The notes beneath the pieces were generated by a model. It saw nothing but the letters and a program-made list of their open reading frames with translations, was not told the origin of the DNA and searched no databases. This document shows, one piece after another, positions 1 through 14,879 of a DNA stretch of 64,000 nt. This DNA comes from Bacteroidota bacterium. GTDB lineage: Bacteria; Bacteroidota; Bacteroidia; Bacteroidales; VadinHA17. The first letter of the stretch is position 1. Each line of letters begins with the position of its first letter. Position numbers and translations under genes: made by a program. The stretch is from positions 1,216-65,215 of the forward strand of contig DRFJ01000048.1 of assembly GCA_011050615.1 (NCBI GenBank). The letters run 5' to 3'.

Positions 1-79
1 CAATATAAAAGCTTACGGCTCCGAGGAGGAACCATATAAACCTGTTGGCGAAAATGATCTTAAGGTTATACCTTATCAT
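1..79 (-). CDS. First 26 codons of a further membrane protein (probable ABC-2-type permease), cut by the window edge
   Basis: Minus-strand ATG at 79-77, 31 nt after the stop of the fusion gene. Translates MIRYNLKIIFANRFIWFLLGAVSFYI..., a short basic N-terminus followed by a hydrophobic helix, the same layout as the N-terminus of the 1140-aa permease starting at 13972. Too short for the ORF track. Confidence 0.35.
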   Translation of the reverse strand, partial: MIRYNLKIIFANRFIWFLLGAVSFYI

Positions 80-110
80 TTTCACCACTATATCGGCCAG
101 GTTAGCTATA

Positions 111-3100
111 TTAGTTATTCTGCTCATTATATATTTCACTTTTACTCTTTCTCAGCAGCCAGAGGTAGGAATCCTCAAGGTTGGGCTTTACCTCCCTTGC
201 CTGCTCATGCGGTTTATTCAGGGATATGCATCTCACCCTTATGCTTCCTTTTTCTGACATATGGTGTACCACCATGTTCTCCGAGGCAAATTTCCTGAAT
301 TCAGCTGCGGGAATGTTAAACTGCCATACCCTGCCCTCGGCTTCTTTAGTCATTTGTCCGGGGTGACCCAGGTATTTGAGATAGCCCTTATCAAGCACAG
401 CCACCTTGTTACATGAGCTCGATATGTCTTCGATTATATGAGTTGAAAATATTACCACCCGTTCCCGGCTCAGTTCCACCAGGAGGTTTCTGAACCTTAT
501 TCTTTCCCTGGGGTCGAGTCCTGCCGTCGGTTCGTCCACCACCAGTATGCGAGGCAAATGCAGCAATATCTGTGCAATACCGATTCTCTGCTTCATTCCA
601 CCTGAGTAGGATCCGATTTTTTCATCCTTGCGTTCATGCATATGCACTGCATTAAGGACATAATGTACCCGTTCATCCCTGGTTTTTTTGTCGGTAATAT
701 TTTTCAATATAGCCTGGTGCTGTAGGAATTCCCAGGCTGTCATGTTTTCATAGGTCCCGAATTCCTGGGGGAGGTAGCCGATAAGTCCCTGCAATTCCTC
801 ACGTTTTTCGGCAACATCAAGGCCATTAATCCATATCTTTCCATAGCTTTGATCGAGTATGCCGCAGATTATTCTCATCAATGTTGTTTTTCCCGCACCA
901 TTTGGCCCCAGTAATCCAAACATCCCATTTCCAATCTCCATTGATACTCCCCCCAGTGCCTTGAATGGTTTACGAACCTTGCCTATGAGGGGAGTGGAAA
1001 GAACCAGTTTGTAATAAGCCTTCCTCAGATTCCTGAATCTTCCTTTCAGCCTGTAGATATCGGTAGCTTTTTCATTGAGAGATCTGCCTGTTGACCATAT
1101 CATAAGGCCCGCATACCATAGAAAACCCACAACAATGACTGCAGCAATATTATTCCATTTGGCCTGGAAGATAATCAGATTGGCAAAGGGGATAAGCCAG
1201 TAGACAGCTATATTCAGTATTTTTTTCAGGAAGGGGGGCAAGGTTTTCTTATCCCTCAGTATCGAATAAAGCGGATCCCAGATAAGGATTATCATAAACC
1301 AGCTGACAAGGCTGAAGAAGAATATCCAGAAGCCTTTCTGTAAATATATATATGTGAAATAAAGTAAGAAGCCCAGCAGTGGTATTTGCCAGATATACTG
1401 TTGTAAATCGCGTATTGATTGAGGTTTTGTATCAAGTCCCAGCCTGCTTCTGATTTTCTTTCCTGCTTTCCATTCCCTGATCATCCTTGGATCACGGTCA
1501 TATATTTTAACAAGGCTCCTGATAACTATATTTACCGGCTCGTCTTCGGCTATAACTGTTTCTCGTGCTTTCCTGAGGCTTGTCCTGATAAACCAGGTCA
1601 CTGCCGGCACAAGTATGATTACAAGTATGGTGCTTATAAGCTGCCACAGGAACTTGTTAATATAAAGGTATATCATTGTCACAAGAAAAACAGAAACGAT
1701 GAGCATTACTGTTTTTATCTTCCAGTTCTGTGACCTTATCCATGATATTGAATTTTCAAGTCCGGTATAAAAAGTAGGAATAAAGACCAGTGTAAGCATC
1801 GTACTGAGGGCAAGTCCGCCAATAACAGTTATTGCAAATGAGGCCCCTATTATGGATGCATATTCTGATTTTCCCATTGCCAGAGGCATTAATGCTACGA
1901 TAGTTGTAATTGCCGTAATAAGGATAGGCCTTACACGGGCCAGACCTGCCGTCATAAGAGCTCTTGACCTCCTGTAGCCTCTTTTCCTGAGTATATTTGA
2001 ATAATCGATAAGAATAATGCCATTATTGACCACCACGCCAAGCAGAATGAGAAAGCCGGTAAGTGTGTTGGCGTTTAGCAATGAATTGCCCGTAAGTATA
2101 AGTGCAATTAGTGAACCAAGTGCTGCCAGTGGTATTGAAAGCATGAGCACTACCGGTGTTGACAATGATTCAAAAACAGCAGCCAGTATCATAAAAATCA
2201 GCAGGAAGGCAATACCTATAAGGTAATAGAAGTCTTTTAACTGGTCCTCTTCATGTATAACTTCAATAGCTATACCCGAAGGAATATTCATTCCTGCAAT
2301 CAGCTGGTCTATTTCTTCCCTTGCACTTTCAAGCAAGGTCCTGGATGAAGTTATCTCATTATTAAACCTGTAGGTAATAGTAATACTCTTTTCCTGGTTT
2401 TCACGGTGGATATTACCCATGCCGTAGGAGAATACTATCGCGGCAATCTCTTCCATTTCAACAATGTTACCACTTGCACCGGATATCTGTAACCGTTTAA
2501 GGTCATCAATATTTTTATACTCTTCTTCCTCTTCCTCCGGCCTGTCGTATTTTATTATTATATCATATTCCTCCTCGCCCTGTTTGAATTTTACACCCGA
2601 TGAATATTCAGGTTGAAATGATGTCAGTTCCTGGGTAATATTATTCAGGCTGATATTATTCCTGCTCATCAGCTCAGTGTTGAAACTGAGCTGTACTTCG
2701 GGTGTATTGTCCTGGATATTAGCACTTACCGATCTGATGGTATTCAGGTCTTCCAGATAATATTCCATATCATCAGCCAGGTTTCTCATCTTGCCGAAGT
2801 CCTGGCCCTTGATTATTATGCTTTCAGACTCGGCACCTATGCCCAGCATACGGGTAAATCCCTCTCCCGGGTTAATCCCGCCGGCTCCACCGCCTCCTCC
2901 CATACCTGAGCCCGAGGAAATCTCACCCATAGTTATTTCAGCACCTCCGAAATTGTGTACCCGTTCGTAAATATCGTTTTTAATTTCAGCAAGTTCACGG
3001 TTACTTTCCTTATCCCAGTCTTCCTTCAGCTGGATTGTAAGGGAGGCCTGGTCTTCCTCAATCTTTGATATAATATCTCCTTTTTCGGGGAGGTTGTCGA

Positions 3101-4847
3101 GGCGTTTTTCAAGCTCGCTTACCAGTACATCTGTTTTTTCGAGGGTTGACCCGGCCGGCATAATAATGCTTACCGGGAAGCTTCCTGTTTCTATCTCTTC
3201 CAGGGTATTAATGCTTAATCCCAGGCTTATCAGCAGGGCGGCAAAAAAGACGACCAGGCTTCCAATAATAGTTGTAGCGGGACGGCGCATGCTGGCCTTC
3301 AGGATGAGAAGATAGGATTGTATCAGGCGGTCATGTATTGAGAGTTTTTTGAAGACCTGTGAATGACTCTTTTTGGACCATGAAAGCAGGTAATGTGTTG
3401 CCATGGGAATCAGCAGAAGGGCAACGGCCAGAGAAACCAGGAGGGTTGACACTATCGAAACTCCAATATTCTTACCTATAATTTTTACCAGGAAATTATC
3501 AGAGAATACAAAGGGAAGGAAGACTGTTATGGTAGTAAGTGTGGCTGCTATCACTGACCTGTACACTTCCTTAGTCCCTTTTTTCACTGCCTCGTCGGTA
3601 CCGGATCCACTTCCTGCGAGCCTGTAAATATTCTCGAGGACAACAACCGAATTGTCAATAAGCATACCTATGGCAAGGGCCATGCCTACCAGGGTAAGGC
3701 TGTTCACGGTTATGCCTGCTGCATAGAAGAAGTTAAAGGCTGTGAATACTGAAACAGGTATGGAAAAAGCAATGATGAAAACCAGTCTGAGATTTCTGAG
3801 GAAGAACCATAATATTACAACAGCAAGGAGTCCGCCCAGAAGGGCAAGGTTAATTATCTGGTCAATGTTCTTTTCCATAACCTCGGCGTTATTGTTCTGG
3901 ACAAGAACCTCCACACCTGAAGAAGCCAGTCGTTTGTTCAACTCATCTATGACTTCGAGGGTGTGATGGGAGAGATCGATGATATTAGCCTGGTTATCAT
4001 ATACCAGATTAATGGTTACCGCATCGAGGCCGTTTACCCGGCTGTACGACTCCTCCTCTTTTACACCGAAGAATATTTCTGCCACATCCTTTAGCAGTAC
4101 AGGTCCCTGGGGATTTACCACTATATTCCGGATATCAGTTACATTATCGAATTCAGCAGATATATTGACAAAAAATCTCTTATCTGATTCGTATACCAGT
4201 CCGGCGAACACCTTATCATTACTGTTTGAAGAAATCAGGGATCTGACCCTGTTCATTGTTATGCCATTTGCCTTGCAGGCTTCCTCATCCAGTCTTATTT
4301 CTATTGAGCTTTCCCTTCCTCCGAAGACTTCCACCCCTGCAATACCATCTATATTCTCAAGTTCAGGTTTGATTTCCCTGTCGGCTATATCCCTTATCCT
4401 GTCGACTCCTCCGCTGCCCCTGACCTGCAGGTCCATAAACCGGCTGTTGAGCTGTTCAAGGTCTATCCTTATTATATTCACAACAAATTCTTCAGGAAGG
4501 CTTGCTGACAACACATTCACTTTTTCCTGTAACTTGAGATAGGAGTATTTAAGATCGGCATTCTGGCTGTAATAGATCATTACCATACCATAGCGGGATG
4601 TAACTGTTGATTCTATCTTCTCCACGTCTTCAAGTGTCCCGACAGCTCCTTCAACGGGTATTATTGCCTGGTTTTCAATATATGAGGGGTCAACATCAAG
4701 GACTGAACTCACCTGGACGATAAGAGTGGGTAATTGTGCATTGGGATAAAGCTCAACCTGTAGTTGCTGATATGATACATAACCAAGAAGCGAGAGCCCT
4801 ATAAAGAGCATGCTTATGAGAGTCTTTCTTTTGATTATAAATTCCAT
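111..4847 (-). CDS. RND (AcrB/HAE1-like) efflux permease fused via six extra TM helices to an ABC-transporter ATP-binding domain
   Basis: Single uninterrupted 1578-codon ORF. aa 1-~1035 is a 12-TM RND permease with two large periplasmic loops. aa ~1043-1088 are two extra hydrophobic helices. aa ~1105-1118 (VNIVIRSLVKIYDR) is an ABC beta-1-like strand. aa ~1152-1252 are four more hydrophobic helices. aa ~1295-1578 is an ABC ATPase: Walker A GPNGAGKTT (nt 882-908), Q-loop YLPQE, signature YSGGMKQR, Walker B ILVVDEPTAGLD, H-loop STHI. Confidence 0.9.
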   Translation of the reverse strand: MEFIIKRKTLISMLFIGLSLLGYVSYQQLQVELYPNAQLPTLIVQVSSVLDVDPSYIENQAIIPVEGAVGTLEDVEKIESTVTSRYGMVMIYYSQNADLKYSYLKLQEKVNVLSASLPEEFVVNIIRIDLEQLNSRFMDLQVRGSGGVDRIRDIADREIKPELENIDGIAGVEVFGGRESSIEIRLDEEACKANGITMNRVRSLISSNSNDKVFAGLVYESDKRFFVNISAEFDNVTDIRNIVVNPQGPVLLKDVAEIFFGVKEEESYSRVNGLDAVTINLVYDNQANIIDLSHHTLEVIDELNKRLASSGVEVLVQNNNAEVMEKNIDQIINLALLGGLLAVVILWFFLRNLRLVFIIAFSIPVSVFTAFNFFYAAGITVNSLTLVGMALAIGMLIDNSVVVLENIYRLAGSGSGTDEAVKKGTKEVYRSVIAATLTTITVFLPFVFSDNFLVKIIGKNIGVSIVSTLLVSLAVALLLIPMATHYLLSWSKKSHSQVFKKLSIHDRLIQSYLLILKASMRRPATTIIGSLVVFFAALLISLGLSINTLEEIETGSFPVSIIMPAGSTLEKTDVLVSELEKRLDNLPEKGDIISKIEEDQASLTIQLKEDWDKESNRELAEIKNDIYERVHNFGGAEITMGEISSGSGMGGGGGAGGINPGEGFTRMLGIGAESESIIIKGQDFGKMRNLADDMEYYLEDLNTIRSVSANIQDNTPEVQLSFNTELMSRNNISLNNITQELTSFQPEYSSGVKFKQGEEEYDIIIKYDRPEEEEEEYKNIDDLKRLQISGASGNIVEMEEIAAIVFSYGMGNIHRENQEKSITITYRFNNEITSSRTLLESAREEIDQLIAGMNIPSGIAIEVIHEEDQLKDFYYLIGIAFLLIFMILAAVFESLSTPVVLMLSIPLAALGSLIALILTGNSLLNANTLTGFLILLGVVVNNGIILIDYSNILRKRGYRRSRALMTAGLARVRPILITAITTIVALMPLAMGKSEYASIIGASFAITVIGGLALSTMLTLVFIPTFYTGLENSISWIRSQNWKIKTVMLIVSVFLVTMIYLYINKFLWQLISTILVIILVPAVTWFIRTSLRKARETVIAEDEPVNIVIRSLVKIYDRDPRMIREWKAGKKIRSRLGLDTKPQSIRDLQQYIWQIPLLGFLLYFTYIYLQKGFWIFFFSLVSWFMIILIWDPLYSILRDKKTLPPFLKKILNIAVYWLIPFANLIIFQAKWNNIAAVIVVGFLWYAGLMIWSTGRSLNEKATDIYRLKGRFRNLRKAYYKLVLSTPLIGKVRKPFKALGGVSMEIGNGMFGLLGPNGAGKTTLMRIICGILDQSYGKIWINGLDVAEKREELQGLIGYLPQEFGTYENMTAWEFLQHQAILKNITDKKTRDERVHYVLNAVHMHERKDEKIGSYSGGMKQRIGIAQILLHLPRILVVDEPTAGLDPRERIRFRNLLVELSRERVVIFSTHIIEDISSSCNKVAVLDKGYLKYLGHPGQMTKEAEGRVWQFNIPAAEFRKFASENMVVHHMSEKGSIRVRCISLNKPHEQAREVKPNLEDSYLWLLRKSKSEIYNEQNN

Positions 4848-4853
4848 AGCAGT

Positions 4854-7800
4854 CTACCTGGCTTGCGTAATAAGGCTTTGTTTCTTTCCTCCCACCATGT
4901 CCTTCAGGGCATCCAGTACCCAGTATACACAGGGAATAACCACAAGGGTCAATATGGTAGACGTTACAAGTCCGCCTATCACTGCCAGGGCCATCGGCGA
5001 CCTGAGGGAGGCACTTTCGCCAAAGCCGAATGTCAGAGGTAAGAGTGCCAGTATTGTGGTAATACTGGTCATTACTATAGGTCTGATCCTTTGACCTCCT
5101 GCTTCTATTATTGCCTGACGTCTGCTTAAGCCCTCTGCCCGGAGCTGGTTGATCCTGTCAATCAGGATAATGGAATCATTTACGGCAATGCCCGCCAGCA
5201 TTATAATTCCAATATATGCCATGATATTGAGCGTTTTGCCAAGGAGGAAGAATATCCATACTGAACCGACTGCGGCAAGGGGAATTGTAAGCAATATAAC
5301 AAAGGGATGGATGAGTGATTCAAACTGTGAAGCCAGCACCATATAAACAAGGATGATTGAAAGGATGAGGGCAAAAGTCAGGTTTTTCATTGATTCTTTA
5401 CGCTTAAGTTCCTCTCCGGTGATAATGGTACGGTAGTCTGCCGGCAGACTAATACCTGCCAGTGTCTTTTCAGTATTCCTGACTATATGGTCAAAAGGAA
5501 CCTCCTTATCGGCCATCGCATATACATAGCTTGTTCTTACCTGGTTATTCCTGCTAATTTCACGTGGTGCACTTACTTTTTTTATATCTGCCAGTTCACT
5601 GAGCGGCACCGATACCGAGCCGGCCTTTATCAAAAGGTTTTGCAGGCTCTTCAGTGGTAATTCTTCCAGTTTAATGGTTATATCCTTCAACTCACCACCC
5701 TGCTCAAAGTCGCCCGCTTTTATCCCGGTGAGGTAAGACTGCACCTGTGAGATTATGCTTTCCACACTCACACTGTAATGACTTGCCTTGTAACGGTCAA
5801 TTACTATATCAACCTCTGGAGTTCCTTCGTCCAGTGAGCTGGTGATATTATAAAGGTTTTCTGATTCTGCGAGCCGGGCCTTTACTTCTTCTGTCAGGTC
5901 CCGGATAATGTCAAGATCCTCACCCCTTATTTCAATTACCAGGGGAGCCTTATCCGTTCCAAGAGTTGTTTGCAGGGATGTTTCTTCCCTTTTAAAACTG
6001 ATTTCAATGTACTTCATGGAAGAAAATTTTTCCTGCAGCAGGAGGATGGCTTCATCGGAACGGGCTGCATATTCATCACTAAGAAACACTCTTATCACAG
6101 AAGTGTTTTCGTCCCTGAACAGGTCTGATTCGCCTGAACCCGTTGTGGTTGTAAAACCGGAATGGCTGTACAGCATCTCGACCCTGTCTCCAAGAAGTTC
6201 CCTTGTGATATTTTCCATCTTCCGCGTTGTTTCTGCTGTACGTTCAAGCATCGTACCTTCCGGCATTTTCATCTCGATGGTAAATTCTGATGATTCTGCC
6301 CCGGGCATAAATTCACTGCCCACTTTTGGAAGAATATAGGCCGTAGCAGCCAGCAATATTAAGGCAAGAATTATTACCGGTCCCTTGCGGGCTATTATTT
6401 TTTCCAGCCAGGAGGAATACCATCTGAAGCTTACTGCCCTTTCTTTCCTTTTTGTTTTTCTGTCTTTAAAGAAGGTTGTCACGAGCAGTGGTATTACCAG
6501 TATGGCAACAAAGAGGGACGACAGGAGGGAAAATGCCACTGTCCACGCCTGGTCTTTGAACAATTCACCGGAAGCACCCTGGAGATATACAATTGGAAGA
6601 AACACAACTATTGTAGTTATTGTTGAGGCTGTTATGGCTCCTCCCACCTGGGCTGTCCCTTCAATGGCAGCTTCCCTGAGGGACATCCCCGATTCATAAT
6701 TACGGAATATATTTTCCAGGACGACTATAGCATTATCAACCAGCATCCCGGCTCCGAGGGCCAGTCCCCCGAGGGTCATTATATTTATTGTAAGGTTATT
6801 GAAATACATGAGGTTGAAGGTTGCGATAATTGAAATGGGTATCGCAATGCTCACAACAAGGGTTGTTCCTATGCGGCGCAGGAAAATAAAGAGTACGAAT
6901 ACAGCCAGTATTATACCAAAAAGGGCAGTTTTTTCCACTTCATTGATAGCCCGGTCAATAAACTGGCCCTGGTCCTGGACAATAATAAATTCATAACCGG
7001 GCAAAGCCTTCTTCAGTATCTCAATGGCTTCTGTCAGTTCCTCCACGGCATTAACGGTATTATAGCGGGGCTCTTTATAAACTGACAAGCCCACACATCG
7101 TTCGCCGTTGACGGTTACAATGTTTTCCGGATCCTTATTTGCAATGTAAATATCTGCAACATCGCTGAGGTAAACCGGTATTCTCTCAGCCGCATCCAGA
7201 GTTTCTGCGGTGCTTCCTGCCTGTGATCCTTCTGCAATTTCCCTGAAGCCTATTATAATGTGTTTAAGATCATCGGCCTCTTCTATAACACTGACTCCTT
7301 TAACAACATACCGGGTTCCCAGGTCGGTAATTGAGCCGCCCGACACATTGCGGTTATAGCTGTTTATCTGCTGGGCAATGTCGGAGGTTGACATATCATA
7401 TGCCTGGAGCAGGTATTCATTTGTTTCTATCACTACTTCACCCTCTTCATGACCGGAAAGCTGTATGTCGGCTATACCTTCCAGCCGGATAAGCTCATTG
7501 CGTATGTAATTTTCCGCTGTCTGTCGCAATTCATCCATATTGCTTATCCTGTCATGTTTCAGGGCTATGATCATTACGGGGGTGGCATTGGGATTGTACT
7601 GAGTTATATTGAACTCATCAAGATCTGCATTCTGGCTGAATGAACTTATATCTTTCTGCAGGTCGAGAAAGGCTTCGTCCATATCCTTGTTCCAGGCATA
7701 TTCAACAATTACCTGGGCAGTACCCACCATCGAAACAGATGAAACATTAATTGCATCCTTCTGTCGCATTGCTATTGATTCAACCTGGTCAACAAATTGT

Positions 7801-7985
7801 TTTTCCATCTCTTCGGGCGGTCGCTCACCGGCCTGCAGTTCAATATAGATTTTCGGATTATTCAGGTCGGGGAACAGGTCTGTTCCCAGCTTGCCAAAGG
7901 AAATTATTCCAAGCAGGATTATGCCCAGTACCAGCATAAGTATAGTTACCGGATTTTCAACTGCAAATCGGACTATTTTTTTCAT
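4854..7985 (-). CDS. RND family efflux transporter permease (AcrB/HAE1-like), stand-alone
   Basis: 1043 aa. N-terminus MKKIVRFAVENPVTILMLVLGIILLG is typical. 12 predicted TM helices with two large periplasmic loops. Conserved TM4 region GGLALGAGMLVDNAIVVLENI. Starts 12 nt after the MFP gene. Confidence 0.92.
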   Translation of the reverse strand: MKKIVRFAVENPVTILMLVLGIILLGIISFGKLGTDLFPDLNNPKIYIELQAGERPPEEMEKQFVDQVESIAMRQKDAINVSSVSMVGTAQVIVEYAWNKDMDEAFLDLQKDISSFSQNADLDEFNITQYNPNATPVMIIALKHDRISNMDELRQTAENYIRNELIRLEGIADIQLSGHEEGEVVIETNEYLLQAYDMSTSDIAQQINSYNRNVSGGSITDLGTRYVVKGVSVIEEADDLKHIIIGFREIAEGSQAGSTAETLDAAERIPVYLSDVADIYIANKDPENIVTVNGERCVGLSVYKEPRYNTVNAVEELTEAIEILKKALPGYEFIIVQDQGQFIDRAINEVEKTALFGIILAVFVLFIFLRRIGTTLVVSIAIPISIIATFNLMYFNNLTINIMTLGGLALGAGMLVDNAIVVLENIFRNYESGMSLREAAIEGTAQVGGAITASTITTIVVFLPIVYLQGASGELFKDQAWTVAFSLLSSLFVAILVIPLLVTTFFKDRKTKRKERAVSFRWYSSWLEKIIARKGPVIILALILLAATAYILPKVGSEFMPGAESSEFTIEMKMPEGTMLERTAETTRKMENITRELLGDRVEMLYSHSGFTTTTGSGESDLFRDENTSVIRVFLSDEYAARSDEAILLLQEKFSSMKYIEISFKREETSLQTTLGTDKAPLVIEIRGEDLDIIRDLTEEVKARLAESENLYNITSSLDEGTPEVDIVIDRYKASHYSVSVESIISQVQSYLTGIKAGDFEQGGELKDITIKLEELPLKSLQNLLIKAGSVSVPLSELADIKKVSAPREISRNNQVRTSYVYAMADKEVPFDHIVRNTEKTLAGISLPADYRTIITGEELKRKESMKNLTFALILSIILVYMVLASQFESLIHPFVILLTIPLAAVGSVWIFFLLGKTLNIMAYIGIIMLAGIAVNDSIILIDRINQLRAEGLSRRQAIIEAGGQRIRPIVMTSITTILALLPLTFGFGESASLRSPMALAVIGGLVTSTILTLVVIPCVYWVLDALKDMVGGKKQSLITQAR

Positions 7986-7997
7986 TTTTCGGGATGC

Positions 7998-9050
7998 TTA
8001 TTTCAGTATTTTTACCTTGGCATTATGGCTGAGCGTTTCAAAGCCGTCAGTAACGACTCTTTCATTGGTGTTCAATCCCCTTATCACTTCAACCTCTTTG
8101 TTGTTTTCTAGTCCGGTGGCGATTATGCGTTCATTGGCAACACCCCTGTTTACAATGAAAACGGTCATTCCTCTTTGCCTTGACAGGATAATATCTTTAG
8201 GTATTACAATAACCGAGTCGGCACGGTGGGTAATTATATCAGCCTTAACAAACATCCCCGGCCTGAGTTTTAGCTCCGGGTTGTTTATTTCAATGCTCCC
8301 CCGGAAAGTTCTTGTCTGTGCATTTATTGCAGGTGACAATTGAGTAATCTTACCCTTCAGGGTGTCTCCGGGAAGGGCATAATTAGTTATTCTGACAGTC
8401 TGCCCGGTGCGGATATCATTTATATATTTTTCAGGGAGGTTAATATCCAGAAGCATGGACTTGTAATCCATAATGCCTGCAACCTTGGTTCCTGACTGTA
8501 TTTCTGAGCCCTGGGTATAATATGGCAATTCGGTAATAAACCCGTCAAAGGGAGATGTGATTTTCATCTTTTCGATTTGAAGGCGTGCATTTTCGACTGT
8601 AATCTGGGCGTTGATATAATCATAGCCAGCCTGCTTCAATTCATTAAGTGTAACACCCCCCTTTTCATATAATGACTCCTGTTTTTCAAGATTACTCTTT
8701 GCGAGTTCAAGATTAAGCTCATAGAGTTCCAGCTTAATATTATTTTCATATTCTTCATCTTCGAGGCGGACAATTAATGAACCTTTTCTAAGCCTGTCAC
8801 CAAGCTGCCATTGCCTTCCTGTTTCCGCGTTATTTTCCAGGTAGTACCTGGCGGCTATCTCAGCCACAAGTTCAACATCCACCACAGGATAGACAGTGCC
8901 TGTAGTGCTTACAAATTCTTCAATTGATTTGAGTTTTATGTCTTCTACTGAAACAGGAATTTCAACGTCAGCCTCCAGACCGGCATCCTGGTTATTGCAT
9001 CCTGCGAATAGGAAGGAGAAGAATAAAAGATATATCAGTCTTATTTTCAT
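7998..9050 (-). CDS. Efflux RND periplasmic adaptor subunit (membrane fusion protein, HlyD/AcrA-like) lipoprotein
   Basis: 350 aa. Signal peptide with lipobox FLFAGC, a coiled-coil hairpin segment (NIKLELYELNLELAKSNLEKQESLYEKGGVTLNELKQA), and barrel-sandwich/beta-barrel C-terminal part. Lies between OMF and RND genes. Confidence 0.85.
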   Translation of the reverse strand: MKIRLIYLLFFSFLFAGCNNQDAGLEADVEIPVSVEDIKLKSIEEFVSTTGTVYPVVDVELVAEIAARYYLENNAETGRQWQLGDRLRKGSLIVRLEDEEYENNIKLELYELNLELAKSNLEKQESLYEKGGVTLNELKQAGYDYINAQITVENARLQIEKMKITSPFDGFITELPYYTQGSEIQSGTKVAGIMDYKSMLLDINLPEKYINDIRTGQTVRITNYALPGDTLKGKITQLSPAINAQTRTFRGSIEINNPELKLRPGMFVKADIITHRADSVIVIPKDIILSRQRGMTVFIVNRGVANERIIATGLENNKEVEVIRGLNTNERVVTDGFETLSHNAKVKILK

Positions 9051-9071: not shown

Positions 9072-10538
9072 TTATTGTTGTTCAAGTATCTTTATAGGTG
9101 TTACTGCTTCCTTCTTTTCAAAATCATAAAGGGTTTGTATTTTGAGATTAAGTAATTCCAGTTTATATGATATTATTGCATTGGTAAGAGACAGTTGTTT
9201 TTCAGATAGCTGGTTCTGGTAGATATTAAGATCCATACCTGTAAGGTCGCCGTTCTCATATTTTTCAAGGTTAAGCTCATAGGTCAGTTGTGCATTTTTG
9301 ACATTCTGCCTTGCTATTTCAATCTGGTTTTTAAGATTGGTCAGATTCCTGTATACTTTTCTTATGTTAATTATTATATTGTTTTCTTCCTCTTCATAGC
9401 CTATCATCTGTGATTCGATTGAAGCTTCGGCGGCTTTTATCCTTGATTTACGCTCACCCCAGTCCCACAGGGGTATGGAAAAAGATACGGATACCTGCTG
9501 GTTGTCGGTTGGACTTGCATATATATCGGTAAAATTTTCATTATCACCGAACAAGCCGACCGAGAGGTTAAGGTCGCCCCGAAATTCATTGAGAGCCTTG
9601 GTTTGTATAAGTGAAAATTCTGTATTCTCAATATCTATTTCCCTTTGCCTGAGTTCCATCCTGTTTGCCAGGCCATGATTAATGGCAAAGGTCACATCAA
9701 CATCAATTGTATCGACAGAAATATCGGGGATAACTATTATATCGTCATACAGGCTCATTCCGATCAGCAATTTGAAATCATCCTTGGCATCTTCGAGGCT
9801 TACCCTCTGGTTGTCAACATCAGAACTTGAGGTCGCGAGGTTGAGCTCAGCCTGGTAAAGTTCTTCCCTGGCTGATAATCCGGCATCAACTTTATTCCTG
9901 ATTATATCATAGCTTTTCGTCATATTCTGATAAGCCTCTTCTGCTATAATAAGGCTTTGCTGCTGCTGGTATACGAGATAGAAATACTGGGCTACCTGTC
10001 TTTCCAGTGAAAGCCTCTGTATGGCATAATTGAGCTGTGAATTTTCAAGAGCCAGTTCCAGTTCGCTTATCTGCAGCTTTGTCCTGTTATATGTAAACAG
10101 GGGCTGGTTTATGTTGAGGGACAGGTTATTACTAAATCCTTTGGTGCGCGAGTCATTATACTCGCTGTAGGAGTTTTGCCACGAAAACCTGTTGTTCAAT
10201 GATATTGTGGCATCAGTGGCAACTATGGGTTGAGATATTCTGAAGGTGCCGAAACTGCGTGTTGTTTCACGGGTATTCCATCTTGAAACAAGATCGTTGA
10301 ATTCCCTGTTGTGGGTATACTCAAAAGGGTTTACCGAAAGAGAGAACTGGGATTTGAGAGCAGCCCTCTGGGCATTGAGGTTTTCCCTGCTTCTGACAAG
10401 ATTAAGCCTTGTTCTCTTTATTGAAGGGCTGTTTTCTTCGGCTATATCCAGTGCCATTTCCAGGGTGAGGCCCTGCTGCGCTGTTACATTAAGAGCAAAA
10501 TTAAGGACTACCGGTAATAATAATATTAACTTCTTCAT
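9072..10538 (-). CDS. TolC-family outer membrane efflux protein
   Basis: 488 aa. Signal peptide MKKLILLLPVVLNFALNVTAQ, then LTLEMALDIAEENSPSIK typical of the OMF N-terminus. Two internal repeats rich in coiled-coil-forming Q/L/N/E. Confidence 0.85.
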   Translation of the reverse strand: MKKLILLLPVVLNFALNVTAQQGLTLEMALDIAEENSPSIKRTRLNLVRSRENLNAQRAALKSQFSLSVNPFEYTHNREFNDLVSRWNTRETTRSFGTFRISQPIVATDATISLNNRFSWQNSYSEYNDSRTKGFSNNLSLNINQPLFTYNRTKLQISELELALENSQLNYAIQRLSLERQVAQYFYLVYQQQQSLIIAEEAYQNMTKSYDIIRNKVDAGLSAREELYQAELNLATSSSDVDNQRVSLEDAKDDFKLLIGMSLYDDIIVIPDISVDTIDVDVTFAINHGLANRMELRQREIDIENTEFSLIQTKALNEFRGDLNLSVGLFGDNENFTDIYASPTDNQQVSVSFSIPLWDWGERKSRIKAAEASIESQMIGYEEEENNIIINIRKVYRNLTNLKNQIEIARQNVKNAQLTYELNLEKYENGDLTGMDLNIYQNQLSEKQLSLTNAIISYKLELLNLKIQTLYDFEKKEAVTPIKILEQQ

Positions 10539-10549
10539 ATAGTATTATA

Positions 10550-13500
10550 TTATTTAAGCGTATTCTGTCTTACCCATTTTACTGCATCTCCGGTAACTGT
10601 TCTTCCTTCTGACTGGTTTGTCATTATCACCCTTGCGGTGTCAGGTGAGAGATAATATGAACCCAGGTGATTCCATCCGTTTTCCGCGTTTTCCCAGTTT
10701 ACTGTCATTTCCTCGCTCCCATCATCATGCTCAACGCTGAAATGCAGGTCCTGCATTACATTCCTGCCTTCCCCGCCCCGCCCCATCATCATTCTTTGTC
10801 CGCCCCGCTTGCCTATAAAAGTATACACATCGTAGTATCCGGGCTCCGGGATACTGGCTGTCCAGCTTATATATCTTTCCCCGCTGCCGGCGCGTGTATA
10901 TACTGCTGACTTGACATATTTACCATAATAAATGCTCTCAACCGTCTTTTGCCAGTATTCCGGTGCCCACCATATGAACATTTCACGGTAATCATTACCA
11001 TTATCACGCCTGATATTCAGCCATTCTTTCAGTTTACCTGATGATGTTTCCTGGTAGATTCTGAATCCCGGATCTTCATTGTCAACAATTATTTCATTTT
11101 CCTCCTCCATGAGAGGTATTTTGTCAAGTATTATTTCCCCTTCGGTATTGTCATCTGTTTTGCCCTGCATAAGATCCATCAGTGGAAACTGCAGCTCACC
11201 GGGATTATTAATTGAAAAGAGTGTATTTACGAACATACCCCGTGGCTGGGCATCAAGTATCACACTTATTCTTTTGGCCTGGTTTGCTTCAAGCTTTACA
11301 ATTTTTTCCACATCATTGGTCTGCATACCCCTGCCTTCCATACCTATTGACATACTACCCCTTCCTGAGGCGCTTATGGTAATTGATACATTGCCCCCCA
11401 TGCCTCGTCCTCCACCTTGTCCCGGCCTACCGGTACGGAAGCCGACATTGAAAATGCCGGGTGTCTTTTCAGGATTGGATGCAGTAAAACTTACTTTGTA
11501 CCTGGTGCGGTTTCCTACAACTATTTCGTTAACTATAATATCAGTAAAAAGAAAACCCGGCTGCCCTTTACCATTATACCATTGATCAAGGTAGCTCTTG
11601 AGGTCGAAGCCGAACCTTTCGCCGAGATCGCTGTTAAATTCATCTATACTGACATTCCTGAATTTTTTCTTTTCGAGGTATGATGAAAACCAGTTGTTAA
11701 ACTCTTCCATCCCGGCCTCCGCACGAAGGAGGTTAAACAGGTAATCACCTTTTAATGTGAGTATAAGTCTTGTAGTGTCTGTCGACGGGTTAAGGGCGAG
11801 TATTTCCTTCAGGCTGTGATCCTTGAGGATGGTATTTGCCCTGTCATTCTCACTGAGTCCTCCCAGAAGCATCCTCTGGAATCCTCTCTGAGGCGTTTCC
11901 ACTTTCTGAAGGTGTGTTTCAAAAACAGCATTGATAACAGGATATTCATCGGAATAGAAATTATTCTTGTAAAAATAGAAACTGGGTCCCAGCAAATATC
12001 TTCCCGGGGTCATAGAAGTGTTTCCCCTGTTAAATCGGAAACCGGAGCTGGTGATGAAGGTATTTCTGACAAAATTATTAAAAGCCCTGACCTGGAGTTC
12101 CCTGTCGGTTATTACCTCGTTATTCCTTTCCATCCTTCTTTTTTGCCTCTTTATTGTACCGTGGAAGCCGGCATCATTTATTGTAGCCAGCTTTTCTGGC
12201 AAGAGTATAAGTGAAGGCTGAACTTCAGCCCTTGTCTGGGTATTTTTTCTTTCTATCGAGTGAAAATAAACCGGCACTTCCACGAGACTCAGGCTGTTAA
12301 AGGGATATTCAGTGCTAAAATTTGTTTCGAGCTCTGTCATAATCCCTGATATGAGGTTACCGAGGGTGTCACTCAGTTCATTCAGATCCTTCCTGAAGTA
12401 GTCGTGTCCCCTGTAGTAATGTGCTATAAAGCCGGTTGAATCAACTGTAATGGTATCGCTGATATAATTACCTTCTATTAGACTGATTCCGGTCAGAGGC
12501 ACCTCATTCTTGAAATACCAGTAATCATTGTCAGATGATCTTACTCCCTGTGATACAGCAACAAGTTTATTGTTTCTGGCAACCTTTAATGTATAATATG
12601 TAAAGTCAATGAGGATCCTTGCCGGATTGCCCGGATAAAAGTTGAGCCCTGCTACGGGGTACCAGTGAGTTTCAGGTGTCAGCAAGAGAAAATTGTCTTT
12701 TTGAATAGCCTGTCTTTTTTCAACCCTGACGGGCCCAATGGTGAACGGATCCTTCTTTATATCTTCCGTATGCCAGGGATAGCAGTAAGCCTCTTCTACC
12801 AGGCCCTCATAGGTGAAACTAATACTTAAAGATGAATCGGGTTCAAGGGCTTTCCCGAGATCAACAATAATTATATGGCCATCGCCTGTAAATGAAGCAG
12901 GCGAACCATTTACGTCAATCTTTCTGACCGCCAGTCCGGGGTTTAATGAAAAGGGAGATTCACTGAGCGGCCTTCCCGTGTTATTTACACAATTTAATGT
13001 TGCCAGGGCAGTGATAGAACGCTTTGAATAATCAATTTCAATATCTGCCTCCGTAACTTTAAGGAAATCGCTGCTTTCGTATTTCCTGTTGGTTTCTGTT
13101 ATGGAAGTTTTAAGGTTTTGGGTCCTGTAATAATCATCCAGGAAATAATATGCTGTGAAAGCGGTAATGGCTAAAAATATAATCAGGGAGACAGAGCTTA
13201 TGATCCTGTGTGTTCTTGATTGTGGCAGCCTTTTAAATATAAGTATTGTTGCGAAAATAAAAACAAGACCCAGGGCTGTATACATAATTCTCTGGGCAAG
13301 AATCAAATCTAAATTACTGAATCCCGTTATATTGCTTTTAAAGACAGGAAATCCAAAGAGCATATAGTCGAAAAATGAATTCATCCTGTTATAGAGATAG
13401 AACATATCAAGTGCCGCAAGGCCCAGCAGCAGGAGGAAGGTGATTGCCTGGTTGCGGATGATGGACATCAATATATAGGCAAAGCCAAGGCTGAAGATCA

Positions 13501-13972
13501 ATGTCGGGATAGTGATTATAAAAATATATTCAATATAAGCAGCTGCATCTATACTTGCCTGTTTAGATATTATGTTAATTATGAGGCAGATGATAAGGAT
13601 TAATATATTTACGCCCAGGAAAAGCCTCAGTATGCCAAGTGATTTTCCGAATATATACTCCATGTTTGACATCGGCCTTGTATAAAGAACCTCATTTGTA
13701 TCCAGCTTTTTATCTCTTTTAAGGAAGTCTGATGCCAGAAATATTACTATAAGAGCCTGGGCAATATTAATTATGTAAAGGTTAAACAGTGGCAGGGATG
13801 AAGGGATGGCAAGGAAGGACCAGTCTTCATCTCCCACGGGGCTGAAAATCCCGATATTCATTATTGAAAGGATAAACAGTGCTCCAAATGAGAACAACCT
13901 GAAAAGCCAGCTGCGGCGTAATGTTTTAGCCTCATAGTGGGCAACAGTTCTGATATTGTGAATGGAAATCAT
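10550..13972 (-). CDS. ABC-2-type permease (about 7 TM) fused to a large periplasmic M1-aminopeptidase-like domain without HExxH and a golvesin-C-terminal-like domain
   Basis: 1140 aa. aa 1-~285 hold about 7 hydrophobic helices. The ectodomain carries M1-like landmarks (THWYPVAG...FTYYTLKVARNNKLVAVSQG; ...SYLDQWYNGKGQPGF). No HE dipeptide occurs anywhere, so no HExxH zinc site. The C-terminus ...ENGWNHLGSYYLSPDTARVIMTNQSEGRTVTGDAVKWV resembles golvesin/Xly C-terminal-like carbohydrate-binding domains. Start codon lies 1 nt after the ATPase stop. Confidence 0.75.
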   Translation of the reverse strand: MISIHNIRTVAHYEAKTLRRSWLFRLFSFGALFILSIMNIGIFSPVGDEDWSFLAIPSSLPLFNLYIINIAQALIVIFLASDFLKRDKKLDTNEVLYTRPMSNMEYIFGKSLGILRLFLGVNILILIICLIINIISKQASIDAAAYIEYIFIITIPTLIFSLGFAYILMSIIRNQAITFLLLLGLAALDMFYLYNRMNSFFDYMLFGFPVFKSNITGFSNLDLILAQRIMYTALGLVFIFATILIFKRLPQSRTHRIISSVSLIIFLAITAFTAYYFLDDYYRTQNLKTSITETNRKYESSDFLKVTEADIEIDYSKRSITALATLNCVNNTGRPLSESPFSLNPGLAVRKIDVNGSPASFTGDGHIIIVDLGKALEPDSSLSISFTYEGLVEEAYCYPWHTEDIKKDPFTIGPVRVEKRQAIQKDNFLLLTPETHWYPVAGLNFYPGNPARILIDFTYYTLKVARNNKLVAVSQGVRSSDNDYWYFKNEVPLTGISLIEGNYISDTITVDSTGFIAHYYRGHDYFRKDLNELSDTLGNLISGIMTELETNFSTEYPFNSLSLVEVPVYFHSIERKNTQTRAEVQPSLILLPEKLATINDAGFHGTIKRQKRRMERNNEVITDRELQVRAFNNFVRNTFITSSGFRFNRGNTSMTPGRYLLGPSFYFYKNNFYSDEYPVINAVFETHLQKVETPQRGFQRMLLGGLSENDRANTILKDHSLKEILALNPSTDTTRLILTLKGDYLFNLLRAEAGMEEFNNWFSSYLEKKKFRNVSIDEFNSDLGERFGFDLKSYLDQWYNGKGQPGFLFTDIIVNEIVVGNRTRYKVSFTASNPEKTPGIFNVGFRTGRPGQGGGRGMGGNVSITISASGRGSMSIGMEGRGMQTNDVEKIVKLEANQAKRISVILDAQPRGMFVNTLFSINNPGELQFPLMDLMQGKTDDNTEGEIILDKIPLMEEENEIIVDNEDPGFRIYQETSSGKLKEWLNIRRDNGNDYREMFIWWAPEYWQKTVESIYYGKYVKSAVYTRAGSGERYISWTASIPEPGYYDVYTFIGKRGGQRMMMGRGGEGRNVMQDLHFSVEHDDGSEEMTVNWENAENGWNHLGSYYLSPDTARVIMTNQSEGRTVTGDAVKWVRQNTLK

Positions 13973-13973
13973 T

Positions 13974-14879
13974 TTATTTAACCTGTACGTTAATGTTTGT
14001 TCCGTTTATCTTATGCTCCATGTAATAAACATAGGCATGTTCCAGGTTGGGCTCAATTTCCTGGCTGTCAAATCCTGACACGTCATCGGCCACTACCTGG
14101 GCATCCCAGCCAATATCACTGGGTATGGATGAGATTATATGGTAAGTGTCTTTAATCCTGTCATATTCTTCCTGGGTCAGTCTCAGGTTAAATACATGAC
14201 CCTCAGCCTGTTTTACCAGTTCGTCAGGTGATCCTGAAAAAACCATTTCACCCATGTTCAAAAGCGCCATTCCCTGGCATGTAGAGGAAATATCTCCTAC
14301 TATATGCGTGGAAAGGATAATTGTAACATCATGTTGACTCAGGTCTGACAGTATATTCCTGAACCGTATTCTTTCATCAGGGTCAAGGCCCGTTGTTGGC
14401 TCATCCACAACTATAATTCTTGGGTCACCTATCAGTGCCTGGGCAATGCCAAGTCTTCTTTTCATCCCTCCTGATAATTTATTTGCCTTCCTGTCCCGTG
14501 CTTCAAGCAGGCCTACCTTGTCAAGAAGCTCATCAACTATGGACAGCCTTTGCTTCCTGTTTTTTATACCAGCCAGCGAGCCTGCATAATCAAGGAATTC
14601 CCATGTTTTTAAACGTGTAAAGAAACGAAAATCCTGGGGGAGGTATCCCAGGTAAGAACGCAGTTTTTTCCTGTTCTTCTGTATGTTTTCTCCATCGACA
14701 AGCACCTCCCCGGAGCTTGGTTTCATAAGGGCGACAAGTACCTTCATGAGGCTGGATTTACCTGCGCCGTTCGGACCCAGCAGACCGAACATCCCTTCTG
14801 CAATTGTCAGATTGATGTTTTTAACAGCGTGATTACCGTTTTTATATATTACATCAAGACCTCTTATCTCGATCTTCAT
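13974..14879 (-). CDS. ABC transporter ATP-binding protein (ABC-2 subfamily type)
   Basis: 301 aa. Walker A GPNGAGKSS, Q-loop YLPQD, signature LSGGMKRR, Walker B IIVVDEPTTGLD, H-loop STHI. C-terminal accessory domain ends in EPNLEHAY. Visibly paralogous to the C-terminal domain of the 1578-aa fusion. Confidence 0.92.
   Translation of the reverse strand: MKIEIRGLDVIYKNGNHAVKNINLTIAEGMFGLLGPNGAGKSSLMKVLVALMKPSSGEVLVDGENIQKNRKKLRSYLGYLPQDFRFFTRLKTWEFLDYAGSLAGIKNRKQRLSIVDELLDKVGLLEARDRKANKLSGGMKRRLGIAQALIGDPRIIVVDEPTTGLDPDERIRFRNILSDLSQHDVTIILSTHIVGDISSTCQGMALLNMGEMVFSGSPDELVKQAEGHVFNLRLTQEEYDRIKDTYHIISSIPSDIGWDAQVVADDVSGFDSQEIEPNLEHAYVYYMEHKINGTNINVQVK

What the first reader, a model, noticed from the sequence alone, without database searches (positions are those of the whole stretch)
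1092..1535. The fused ABC domain is split: about 180 aa with four TM helices lie between its first beta-strand and the Walker A region
**Comparison with the paralogue.** In the stand-alone ATPase the N-terminus reads IEIRGLDVIYKNGNHAVKNINLTIAEGMFGLLGPNGAGKS, so the first strand runs directly into the rest of the domain.

In the fusion the equivalent strand VNIVIRSLVKIYDR (nt 1494-1535) is followed by about 180 residues before the domain resumes at KPFKALGGVSMEIGNGMFGLLGPNGAGKT.

**The insert.** It contains four strongly hydrophobic helices:
- IWQIPLLGFLLYFTYIYL
- FWIFFFSLVSWFMIILIW
- ILNIAVYWLIPFANLIIF
- IAAVIVVGFLWYAGLMIW

**Why it matters.** A membrane domain inserted inside the fold of a nucleotide-binding domain, rather than before or after it, is highly unusual. 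It would clamp the ATPase directly against the bilayer and the RND helices.
Basis: partly seen in the sequence, partly recalled or inferred. Interest (0 to 1): 0.7.

Follow-up and report, generated by a model that had tools for sequence, protein, structure and literature searches.

The report
ABC ATPase split by four membrane helices
A 1578-residue efflux-pump protein carries an ATP-binding domain whose first strand, including the residue that stacks on ATP, lies about 175 residues and four membrane helices before the rest of the domain; this layout is conserved in uncultured bacteria of several phyla and I found no description of it.

Summary

**What is there.** ORF 111-4847 (-) encodes a 1578-aa protein:
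- a complete RND permease (aa 2-1028)
- two extra TM helices
- a cytoplasmic strand, VNIVIRSLVKIY (aa 1105-1118)
- an amphipathic helix
- four TM helices (aa 1145-1260)
- a return helix
- the rest of an ABC nucleotide-binding domain (NBD), from aa 1293

**Evidence that the strand is the NBD's beta-1 and A-loop.**
- Splicing it onto the core extends full-length NBD profiles to positions 1-5. Two rival segments nearer the core do not.
- In 24 of 26 family representatives it is the best of about 1270 possible 18-residue windows.
- In divergent members it reads as the canonical I.IRNLTKIYG.
- An AlphaFold2 model (pLDDT 91.8, pTM 0.81) makes it a 10-residue beta-strand. Every other strand in the model lies in the NBD or its C-terminal domain.

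**Distribution.** The fusion is intact in more than 60 Bacteroidales MAG species. Source names also place it in KSB1 and Latescibacterota. A second RND gene precedes it and an ABC-2-like permease gene follows.

**Limits.** Four literature searches found no description. Strand docking rests on a model, and the mechanism is inferred.

The parts
111..4847 (-). Whole ORF, 1578 aa: RND permease, 2 TM, beta-1, 4 TM, rest of the ABC NBD
   Evidence: ACR_tran 553 bits at aa 2-1028; ABC_tran 99.9 bits at aa 1301-1442. ORFs of about 1570-1610 aa were found in more than 50 of the 80 genome loci scanned.
1764..4844 (-). RND (AcrB-like) permease domain, aa 2-1028
   Evidence: TM4 reads IDNS against MexB VDDA. 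TM10 reads VVNNG where AcrB/MexB have SAKNA.
1563..1724 (-). Two extra TM helices after RND TM12 (aa 1042-1062 and 1066-1095)
   Evidence: Hydropathy. AF2 helices H7-27 and H31-60.
1494..1535 (-). Displaced beta-1 strand with the A-loop aromatic (VNIVIRSLVKIYDR, aa 1105-1118; Y1116)
   Evidence: Splice test. Sliding-window null. AF2 strand at aa 1107-1116. Canonical I.IRNLTKIYG in divergent members. BLAST to the paralogue starts at this strand.
1443..1487 (-). Basic amphipathic helix after beta-1 (aa 1121-1135, RMIREWKAGKKIRSR); the REW motif is conserved
   Evidence: AF2 H86-100. 7 K+R in 15 residues. Conservation.
1068..1415 (-). Four-TM insert (aa 1145-1260: helices 1145-1168 with a break, 1172-1199, 1205-1231, 1234-1260)
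   Evidence: No relative outside this family in 1.84 billion representatives. No similarity to the downstream permease.
972..1067 (-). Return linker (aa 1261-1292), containing rival beta-1 candidates B (1263-1272) and C (1280-1292); AF2 makes aa 1272-1284 a helix
   Evidence: Candidate B is absent in P0120.
333..971 (-). NBD core from beta-2 (aa 1293-1505): Walker A GPNGAGKT 1314-1321, signature YSGGMKQR from 1414, Walker B VVDEP 1436-1440, H-loop STH
   Evidence: The fold search gives NBD structures.
114..332 (-). C-terminal domain of the ATPase (aa 1506-1578)
   Evidence: AF2 strands and helix. Best structural matches are TM_1403, NosF and ABCA, aligned over 274-295 columns or more, longer than a bare NBD core. 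That these carry a C-terminal domain is from my own knowledge.
1..126 (-). Start of the downstream ~239-aa six-TM gene (ABC-2-like permease), overlapping the fusion's stop; cut by the window edge
4854..7985 (-). Plain RND permease (1043 aa) immediately upstream
7998..9050 (-). Membrane fusion protein (350 aa)
9072..10538 (-). Outer membrane factor (488 aa)
13974..14879 (-). Stand-alone ABC ATPase paralogue (301 aa) with contiguous beta-1

Best explanation
**Structure (the core claim).** The C-terminal ABC nucleotide-binding domain of this RND-ABC fusion is discontinuous in sequence.
- Its first beta-strand and A-loop aromatic (aa 1105-1118, Y1116) are separated from beta-2 (aa 1295-1305) by about 175 residues.
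- Those residues form a basic amphipathic helix, a four-helix membrane bundle with both ends in the cytoplasm, and a return helix.
- The strand folds back and completes the antiparallel beta-subdomain of the ATPase.
- The insertion sits in the beta-1/beta-2 hairpin loop. By my reading this is where CFTR NBD1 carries its soluble regulatory insertion.

**Mechanism (inferred, not shown).**
- The ATPase is held on the inner face of the membrane by two tethers: TM14 to beta-1, and TM18 to beta-2.
- The residue that stacks on adenine lies on the N-terminal side of the bundle, and the P-loop on the C-terminal side. ATP binding and release should therefore change the spacing of the bundle's two ends. 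This would be a coupling route additional to the usual coupling-helix groove.
- The likely partners of the bundle are the neighbouring RND helices and the ABC-2-like permease encoded immediately downstream.
- The conserved set of genes (plain RND, RND::ABC, permease, with MFP and OMF) would then be one envelope-spanning export machine containing both an RND and an ABC module.

The confidence given refers to the structural claim.
For: **Shown**
1. Contiguous alignments to full-length NBD models stop at profile position 5-16, at aa 1294-1296.
2. Splicing aa 1098-1120 onto aa 1293-1578 extends alignments to profile position 1-5 and raises scores. GldA goes from 172.1 to 176.6 bits, GlcV from 103.7 to 114.9, and PRK13637 from 101.8 to 106.8. 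Splicing candidate B, or keeping the native upstream sequence, does not extend most of them.
3. Sliding-splice null test with an HMM of 120 orthologues of the stand-alone paralogue: the strand ranks 1 of about 1270 windows in 24 of 26 representatives, with gains of about +4 to +17 bits.
4. In divergent members the motif becomes the canonical I.IRNLTKIYG. Candidate B is not conserved and is missing in P0120.
5. AF2 with 51 sequences gives pLDDT 91.8 and pTM 0.81. It predicts a strand at aa 1107-1116 (pLDDT about 97), four long helices, and beta-2 at aa 1295-1305. All other strands of the model lie in the NBD or its C-terminal domain, so the strand must pair there.
6. The spliced sequence is 38% identical to the paralogue, with the alignment starting VNIVIRSLVKIY / MKIEIRGLDVIY.
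7. Loop charges fit an in/in topology.
8. Weak covariation: strand columns couple best with aa 1326-1347, a strand of the antiparallel subdomain (rank 1-4 of 490 blocks). The top single pair is R1118-K1296.
9. The ORF is intact in more than 50 independent MAG assemblies, and the gene neighbourhood is conserved.
Against: - No coordinates of the model could be inspected. Pairing of the strand with beta-2 is deduced from the DSSP string, not seen.
- The model is a monomer fragment without the RND part.
- The first AF2 run, with 15 mostly fragmentary sequences, was unusable (pLDDT 57). The result therefore depends on the alignment.
- Bit-score gains from a 12-residue strand are small. In the window protein alone an unrelated window scores nearly as well (+9.3 against +9.6). 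Two representatives rank the strand second or third.
- Covariation rests on about 40 effective sequences, and the beta-2 block ranks only 44 of 490.
- Nothing tests ATP binding, NBD dimerisation (RND pumps are trimers) or any coupling to transport.
Confidence: 0.82

Rival explanations
1. The resemblance of VNIVIRSLVKIY to beta-1 is fortuitous. The real first strand is contiguous with the core: either DIYRLKGRF (aa 1263-1272, candidate B) or KLVLSTPLIGKVR (aa 1280-1292, candidate C). The membrane helices simply precede a normal NBD.
For: - B and C are both well conserved within Bacteroidales. Mean column entropy is 0.31 for B and 0.67 for C, against 0.52 for A.
- Two PDB alignments, to LptB and pgp-1, reach back to aa 1275-1288.
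- B-splicing extends two of about 25 profiles, WtpC and PotA.
Against: - Native sequence does not extend most full-length profiles.
- B and C never rank among the top windows, except one fourth place.
- B is not conserved in divergent members and is absent in P0120.
- AF2 makes aa 1272-1284 a helix and the rest coil.
- Neither candidate supplies an aromatic at the A-loop position in the LptB alignment, where Y13 falls on R1292 (my mapping from the aligned ranges).
Confidence: 0.05
2. The strand is a true beta-1, but it completes the NBD of a neighbouring protomer (strand swap) rather than its own. The insert would then cross-link protomers of the RND oligomer.
For: - The long linkers on both sides would allow it.
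- RND pumps are oligomers and NBDs must dimerise (established knowledge).
- The monomer model cannot tell intra- from intermolecular docking.
Against: - AF2 docks the strand in cis with high confidence (pLDDT about 97, pTM 0.81).
- I know of no precedent among ABC proteins.
- It was not tested here.
Confidence: 0.08
3. The strand is a relic of a once-contiguous NBD N-terminus, or of a second degraded NBD left by the fusion event. It is conserved for another reason, for example as a binding site, and is not part of the active fold.
For: The residues that follow it (RF.REW and a basic helix) are also conserved and have no counterpart in canonical NBDs.
Against: - The core has no other beta-1 or A-loop.
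- The motif keeps the exact canonical pattern, including the aromatic residue, in lineages that source names assign to three phyla.
- AF2 places it in a sheet.
- Catalytic motifs of the core are intact, so the domain is expected to need an A-loop.
Confidence: 0.05

Closest known systems
CFTR NBD1 regulatory insertion (residues 404-435)
   Same: An extra segment inside the antiparallel beta-subdomain of an ABC NBD, absent from the other NBD structures known at the time (PMC2217481). From my own knowledge it follows the A-loop aromatic W401 and lies between beta-1 and beta-2, which is the same loop as here.
   Different: It is about 32 residues long, soluble, mobile and phosphorylated. Here the segment is about 175 residues with four membrane helices and two amphipathic helices.
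ABC-2 / DrrA-GldA-NosF type ABC ATPases, including the stand-alone paralogue in the same gene cluster
   Same: Best profile and structure matches are drrA, GldA, TM_1403, NosF and ABCA NBDs. The spliced sequence is 38% identical to the paralogue. All catalytic motifs are present, and an ABC-2-like permease gene lies next door.
   Different: Scores are far below the equivalog and subfamily cut-offs. Beta-1 is not contiguous. The domain is fused to the C-terminus of an RND permease.
Tandem-RND tripartite pumps such as MdtBC / MuxBC
   Same: Two RND genes in tandem sit behind MFP and OMF genes. The plain RND's best equivalog-type hits are MdtC and MdtB/MuxB.
   Different: Scores are far below cut-off. 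One of the two RND genes carries six extra TM helices and an ATPase. TM4 has D-N and TM10 has N where AcrB/MexB have D407-D408 and K940.
MacB-type tripartite ABC pumps
   Same: An ABC ATPase in one polypeptide with membrane helices, encoded with an MFP and an OMF (established knowledge).
   Different: MacB has a contiguous N-terminal NBD followed by four TM helices and a periplasmic domain, and has no RND part. The MacB NBD is only one of many generic NBD matches.
P-type ATPase actuator domain (from my own knowledge)
   Same: A cytoplasmic domain assembled from two sequence segments that are separated by a pair of membrane helices.
   Different: Unrelated fold and family. It is cited only as a precedent for a soluble domain split by membrane helices.

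Membership tests
ABC transporter ATPase (Pfam PF00005 ABC_tran) | Profile match above the curated gathering score | tested here: met
   99.9 bits against a cut-off of 25, at aa 1301-1442.
ABC transporter ATPase (Pfam PF00005 ABC_tran) | Walker A, Q-loop, signature, Walker B with catalytic Glu, H-loop | tested here: met
   GPNGAGKT 1314-1321, YLPQEF, YSGGMKQR from 1414, VVDEP 1436-1440, and FSTH, read from the sequence.
ABC transporter ATPase (Pfam PF00005 ABC_tran) | A-loop aromatic on beta-1, about 25 residues before Walker A and contiguous with the domain | tested here: not met
   No aromatic-bearing beta-1 is contiguous with the core. The motif with Y1116 lies 198 residues before Walker A, across four TM helices. 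The function is probably kept, but the contiguity is not.
GldA (TIGR03522) and DrrA (TIGR01188) ATPases | Score above the NCBIfam curated cut-off | tested here: not met
   GldA scores 168.8-176.6 bits against 402.6. drrA scores 170-175 bits against 312.45.
RND permease (Pfam PF00873 ACR_tran) | Full-length profile match above the gathering score | tested here: met
   553 bits against a cut-off of 28; aa 2-1028 covers profile positions 3-1018 of 1021.
RND permease, HAE-1 type (AcrB/MexB) | Proton-relay residues D407, D408 (TM4) and K940 (TM10) | tested here: not met
   TM4 is I-D-N-S against MexB V-D-D-A in the HMMER alignment. TM10 is VVNNG against SAKNA by motif spacing. The same holds in divergent fusion members and in the plain RND. 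NCBIfam RND subfamily cut-offs are also not reached: 474 bits against 1250.
MdtBC/MuxBC heteromeric RND pumps | Two tandem RND genes whose products reach the MdtB and MdtC equivalog cut-offs | tested here: not met
   The tandem genes are present. Scores are 260 bits (MdtB) and 248 bits (MdtC) for the fusion, and 338 bits (MdtB) and 374 bits (MdtC) for the plain RND, against cut-offs of 1584 (MdtB) and 1774 (MdtC).
ABC-2 family permease (downstream 239-aa gene) | Pfam ABC2_membrane match above the gathering score | tested here: inconclusive
   The Bacteroidales protein has no hit. Its homologue in L081 has a sub-threshold ABC2_membrane_3 hit: 20.5 bits against 31.6, E 2.8e-4. The two proteins are homologous, E 4e-22.
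Functional ABC ATPase dimer | Two NBDs forming a head-to-tail ATP sandwich | not testable with these tools
The partner could be a second fusion protomer or the stand-alone ATPase. It is unknown.

The most novel reading that the evidence does not exclude
The family is a new type of envelope-spanning exporter in which an ABC motor is built into an RND protomer.
- The four-helix bundle inserted between the adenine-stacking strand and the P-loop would act as a direct mechanical link. ATP binding in the split domain would move membrane helices packed against the RND and/or ABC-2 permease helices.
- An RND-type pump whose canonical D408 and K940 proton-relay residues are missing would then be driven or gated by ATP instead of, or in addition to, the proton gradient.
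Probability: 0.15. Interest if true: 0.92.

Novelty: new variant of a known kind. Interest (0 to 1): 0.74.

Why it matters
- **A new exception to NBD architecture.** ABC nucleotide-binding domains are among the best-studied protein folds, and in all described cases the fold is contiguous. Membrane domains come before or after it. A conserved family in which four membrane helices are threaded through the beta-1/beta-2 hairpin puts the adenine-stacking residue and the P-loop on opposite ends of a membrane bundle. This suggests a second route for coupling nucleotide state to membrane helices.
- **Two pump classes in one polypeptide.** The host protein is an RND permease. The same polypeptide therefore joins the two main energy classes of Gram-negative efflux pumps, proton-driven RND and ATP-driven ABC. 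It does so in a gene cluster that also has an MFP, an OMF, a second RND and an ABC-2-like permease.
- **A testable question.** An RND-type machine may be gated or driven by ATP. In support, the D408 and K940 relay residues are replaced in these proteins.
- **Annotation.** Public records call these proteins simply 'efflux RND transporter permease subunit' or 'hypothetical protein', which hides the architecture.

Tried and rejected
- **AF2 with the first 15-sequence alignment (A1).** pLDDT 57, with even the Walker A region below 50. Discarded.
- **AF2 with 69 locus-derived sequences.** Replaced by 51 database proteins.
- **The search for related loci with the fragment-rich alignment A2.** It had no conserved stretch. 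Repeated with a six-sequence block, A3.
- **Stand-alone ABC ATPases from the fetched loci, for a null model.** The flanks contained only two. I used a homologue search of the paralogue instead.
- **Candidate B (DIYRLKGRF) and candidate C (KLVLSTPLIGKVR) as the true beta-1.** Considered seriously, because Wzt/TagH-type NBDs have a longer beta-1/beta-2 connection (from memory). Rejected.
- **The four-TM insert, or all six extra TMs, as a copy of the downstream permease.** hhalign probability below 1%.
- **A stand-alone form without RND.** P0030 (526 aa) looked like one, but it belongs to a cluster with a 1567-aa member and comes from a 2.4-kb contig, so it is a fragment.
- **Foldseek against the PDB.** It returns only generic NBD matches and no residue ranges, so it could not show where the strand aligns.
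- **Column conservation within Bacteroidales.** It does not discriminate between A, B and C, because everything is conserved.
- **Literature searches for RND-ABC fusions or membrane insertions in NBDs.** Nothing relevant.
Full report
**1. What is in the sequence**

The finding lies in one long ORF on the minus strand, nt 111-4847, encoding 1578 aa.
- Pfam finds a full-length RND permease: ACR_tran, aa 2-1028, 553 bits.
- It also finds an ABC ATPase: ABC_tran, aa 1301-1442, 99.9 bits.
VNIVIRSLVKIYDR is aa 1105-1118 (nt 1494-1535). The four hydrophobic segments are aa 1152-1169, 1173-1190, 1210-1227 and 1234-1251. The domain resumes with KPFKAL at aa 1293, and Walker A is at aa 1314-1321.
- Two further hydrophobic helices (aa 1042-1095) lie between RND TM12 and the strand.
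- The stand-alone paralogue (13974-14879 -, 301 aa) starts MKIEIRGLDVIYKNGNHAVKNINL, with beta-1 running straight into the domain.

**2. Is the NBD really missing a contiguous beta-1?**

Full-length NCBIfam NBD models align to the fusion only from profile position 5-16, at aa 1294-1296. PDB sequences mostly align from aa 1288-1309.

Reading the homologues, I found two other segments that could be a contiguous beta-1:
- B: DIYRLKGRF, aa 1263-1272.
- C: KLVLSTPLIGKVR, aa 1280-1292.

The question became which of A, B and C, if any, is beta-1.

**3. Profile test by splicing**

I scored four constructs against NCBIfam: the core alone (aa 1293-1578), the native sequence from aa 1253 (which contains B and C), A spliced to the core, and B spliced to the core.
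- Only the A-splice extends alignments to profile positions 1-5.
- The A-splice raises GldA from 172.1 to 176.6 bits (profile 3-209 instead of 16-209). It raises GlcV from 103.7 to 114.9 (from position 1), PRK13637 from 101.8 to 106.8, ECF_ATPase_2 by 3.0 bits and phnC by 3.0 bits. LptB aligns from position 5.
- The native and B-spliced constructs stay at the core score and start at positions 12-18 in nearly all models. B extends only WtpC and PotA.
- BLAST of the A-splice against the paralogue gives 38% identity over 290 residues, starting VNIVIRSLVKIY / MKIEIRGLDVIY.

**4. Null distribution**

I built an HMM from 120 orthologues of the stand-alone paralogue. For each family member, I spliced every 18-residue window upstream of the core onto the core and scored it.
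- In the window protein, A is first of 1276 windows at +9.6 bits. An unrelated window at aa 268 reaches +9.3, so one sequence alone would not be convincing.
- Across 26 representatives of 50%-identity clusters, the homologous A window is first in 24, with gains of about +4 to +17 bits. It is second in P0089 and third in P0020.
- B and C never appear among the top windows, apart from one fourth place.

**5. The family**

- A search with aa 1036-1300 found only 14 close proteins, mostly fragments.
- A pattern scan of one genome per GTDB species found 120 matching stretches, the 80 kept being distinct loci. All are uncultured Bacteroidales or Bacteroidota MAGs.
- More than 50 of the 80 fetched loci carry an uninterrupted ORF of about 1570-1610 aa. 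The fusion is therefore not an assembly or frameshift artefact.
- A profile search of 1.84 billion representatives found 119 clusters, including full-length members with strongly diverged linkers. Source names place some in candidate division KSB1 and Latescibacterota.
- In these divergent members, A reads LDIAVRELKKVYGE, ISIRNLTKIYGL, ISITNLTKIFGV and ISIRNLTKIYNE. This is the textbook NBD N-terminus, including the aromatic A-loop residue.
- B is replaced by unrelated basic sequence and is absent in P0120. The return always ends in P..G......AL.GV.L.I..GMFGLLGPNGAGKT.
- Every full-length relative of this linker region has the insert. The search could not have detected an insert-less RND-ABC fusion. 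The one apparent short form (P0030) is a contig fragment.

**6. Structure prediction**

The first run, with 15 sequences, was unusable (pLDDT 57). With 51 database sequences (A5), the model of aa 1036-1578 has mean pLDDT 91.8 and pTM 0.81. Converted to protein numbering, DSSP gives:

| Element | Residues |
|---|---|
| Helix | 1042-1062 |
| Helix | 1066-1095 |
| Ten-residue strand (block pLDDT about 97) | 1107-1116 |
| Helix | 1121-1135 |
| Helices | 1145-1151 and 1154-1168 |
| Helix | 1172-1199 |
| Helix | 1205-1231 |
| Helix | 1234-1260 |
| Helix (over the B/C region) | 1272-1284 |
| Strand (beta-2) | 1295-1305 |
| Strand | 1308-1313 |
| Walker A helix | follows |

- Every other strand of the model lies in the NBD or its C-terminal domain. 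A strand assigned by DSSP needs a partner, so A is docked into that sheet.
- Foldseek finds ordinary NBD structures such as TM_1403, NosF, LptB and ABCA.
- Loop charges agree with four crossings and both ends inside. K+R counts are 16, 5 and 12 on the cytoplasmic side, and 1 and 1 outside.
- A mutual-information scan (about 40 effective sequences) is weakly supportive. The block that couples best with strand A is aa 1326-1347, a strand of the antiparallel subdomain, ranking 1-4 of 490. The best single pair is R1118-K1296. The beta-2 block ranks 44 of 490.

**7. Context**

The minus-strand gene cluster reads as follows:
1. Stand-alone ATPase.
2. A 1140-aa protein with about seven N-terminal hydrophobic segments and a Golvesin_C domain.
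3. OMF.
4. MFP.
5. Plain RND (1043 aa).
6. The fusion.

- The window ends inside a seventh gene. A 239-aa six-TM ORF overlaps the fusion's stop codon (window nt 1-126).
- This ORF follows the fusion in 67 of 81 loci.
- It also follows the fusion in a divergent locus that has an RND gene upstream. The two proteins are homologous (E 4e-22).
- The divergent one has a sub-threshold ABC-2 permease hit of 20.5 bits.
- The insert shows no similarity to this permease.
- Orthologues of the stand-alone ATPase lie on contigs whose lengths match those of several fusion loci.

**8. How it most likely works**

Shown:
- The NBD has all catalytic motifs.
- Its beta-1/A-loop motif lies before a four-TM bundle.

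Inferred:
- The strand folds back into the NBD, so the ATPase is stapled to the membrane on both sides of the hairpin.
- Y1116 should stack on adenine while the P-loop is on the other side of the bundle. Nucleotide binding could then be transmitted to the bundle, and through it to the RND helices or the ABC-2-like permease.

Not known:
- How two NBDs would pair in a trimeric RND scaffold. A 2:1 heterotrimer with the plain RND, or pairing with the stand-alone ATPase, are possibilities I could not test.

**9. Comparison with what is known**

- The closest precedent for the site is the CFTR NBD1 regulatory insertion (residues 404-435). It lies in the antiparallel beta-domain and was absent from the other NBD structures known at the time (PMC2217481). 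It is short and soluble.
- The NBD is of the ABC-2 / DrrA-GldA-NosF kind but is below all curated cut-offs.
- The RND part is a clear ACR_tran member. It has D-N in TM4 where MexB has D407-D408, and N where AcrB/MexB have K940.
- Four literature searches and one review gave no description of an RND-ABC fusion or of membrane helices inside an NBD.
- Public records call these proteins 'efflux RND transporter permease subunit', 'AcrB/ABC-type ... ATPase subunit' or 'hypothetical protein'.

**10. Verdict**

They are not fully independent of one another, because they draw on overlapping family sequences.
- The physical docking of the strand and the functional consequences remain predictions.
- I rate it a new variant of known kinds (ABC NBD, RND pump), with high interest for transporter specialists.

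Noticed in passing
window 1-126 (-); L001:11484-12203; L027:11518-12237; L081:7723-8493: A conserved ~239-aa six-TM gene overlaps the stop codon of the fusion and follows it in 67 of 81 loci. It has no Pfam or NCBIfam hit in Bacteroidales. Its homologue in a divergent locus has a sub-threshold ABC-2 permease hit. It is probably the membrane partner of the fused ATPase.
   Followed up: partly
window 111-4847 (-), aa 397-400 and aa 937-948; window 4854-7985 (-): Both RND proteins have D-N in TM4 where MexB/AcrB have D407-D408. They have N (VVNNG / AVNDS) where AcrB has K940 in TM10. The same holds in divergent fusion members. The canonical HAE-1 proton relay is therefore incomplete.
   Followed up: partly
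window ~2870-2920 (-), aa ~645-660 of the fusion: A glycine-rich loop (GSGMGGGGGAGG) sits in the periplasmic part of the fusion's RND domain. Similar Gly-rich runs occur at the same place in the distant members P0109, P0120 and P0073. The neighbouring plain RND has none.
   Followed up: no
window 10550-13972 (-): A 1140-aa protein follows the stand-alone ATPase. It has about seven hydrophobic segments in its first 275 aa, a weak Peptidase_M1 match without an HEXXH motif, and a C-terminal Golvesin_C domain. No NCBIfam model matches. It may be an unusual ABC permease fusion.
   Followed up: partly
window 1443-1487 (-), aa 1119-1135: The residues just after beta-1 (R.[FW].REW followed by a basic helix) are conserved across the whole family. 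They have no counterpart in canonical NBDs, and their role is unexplained.
   Followed up: no
P0002-P0009; contigs of 47-743 kb: Several long-contig MAG assemblies carry the gene as short ORF fragments with out-of-frame tails. This looks like frameshift errors in the assemblies (or pseudogenes) rather than a naturally split gene.
   Followed up: no
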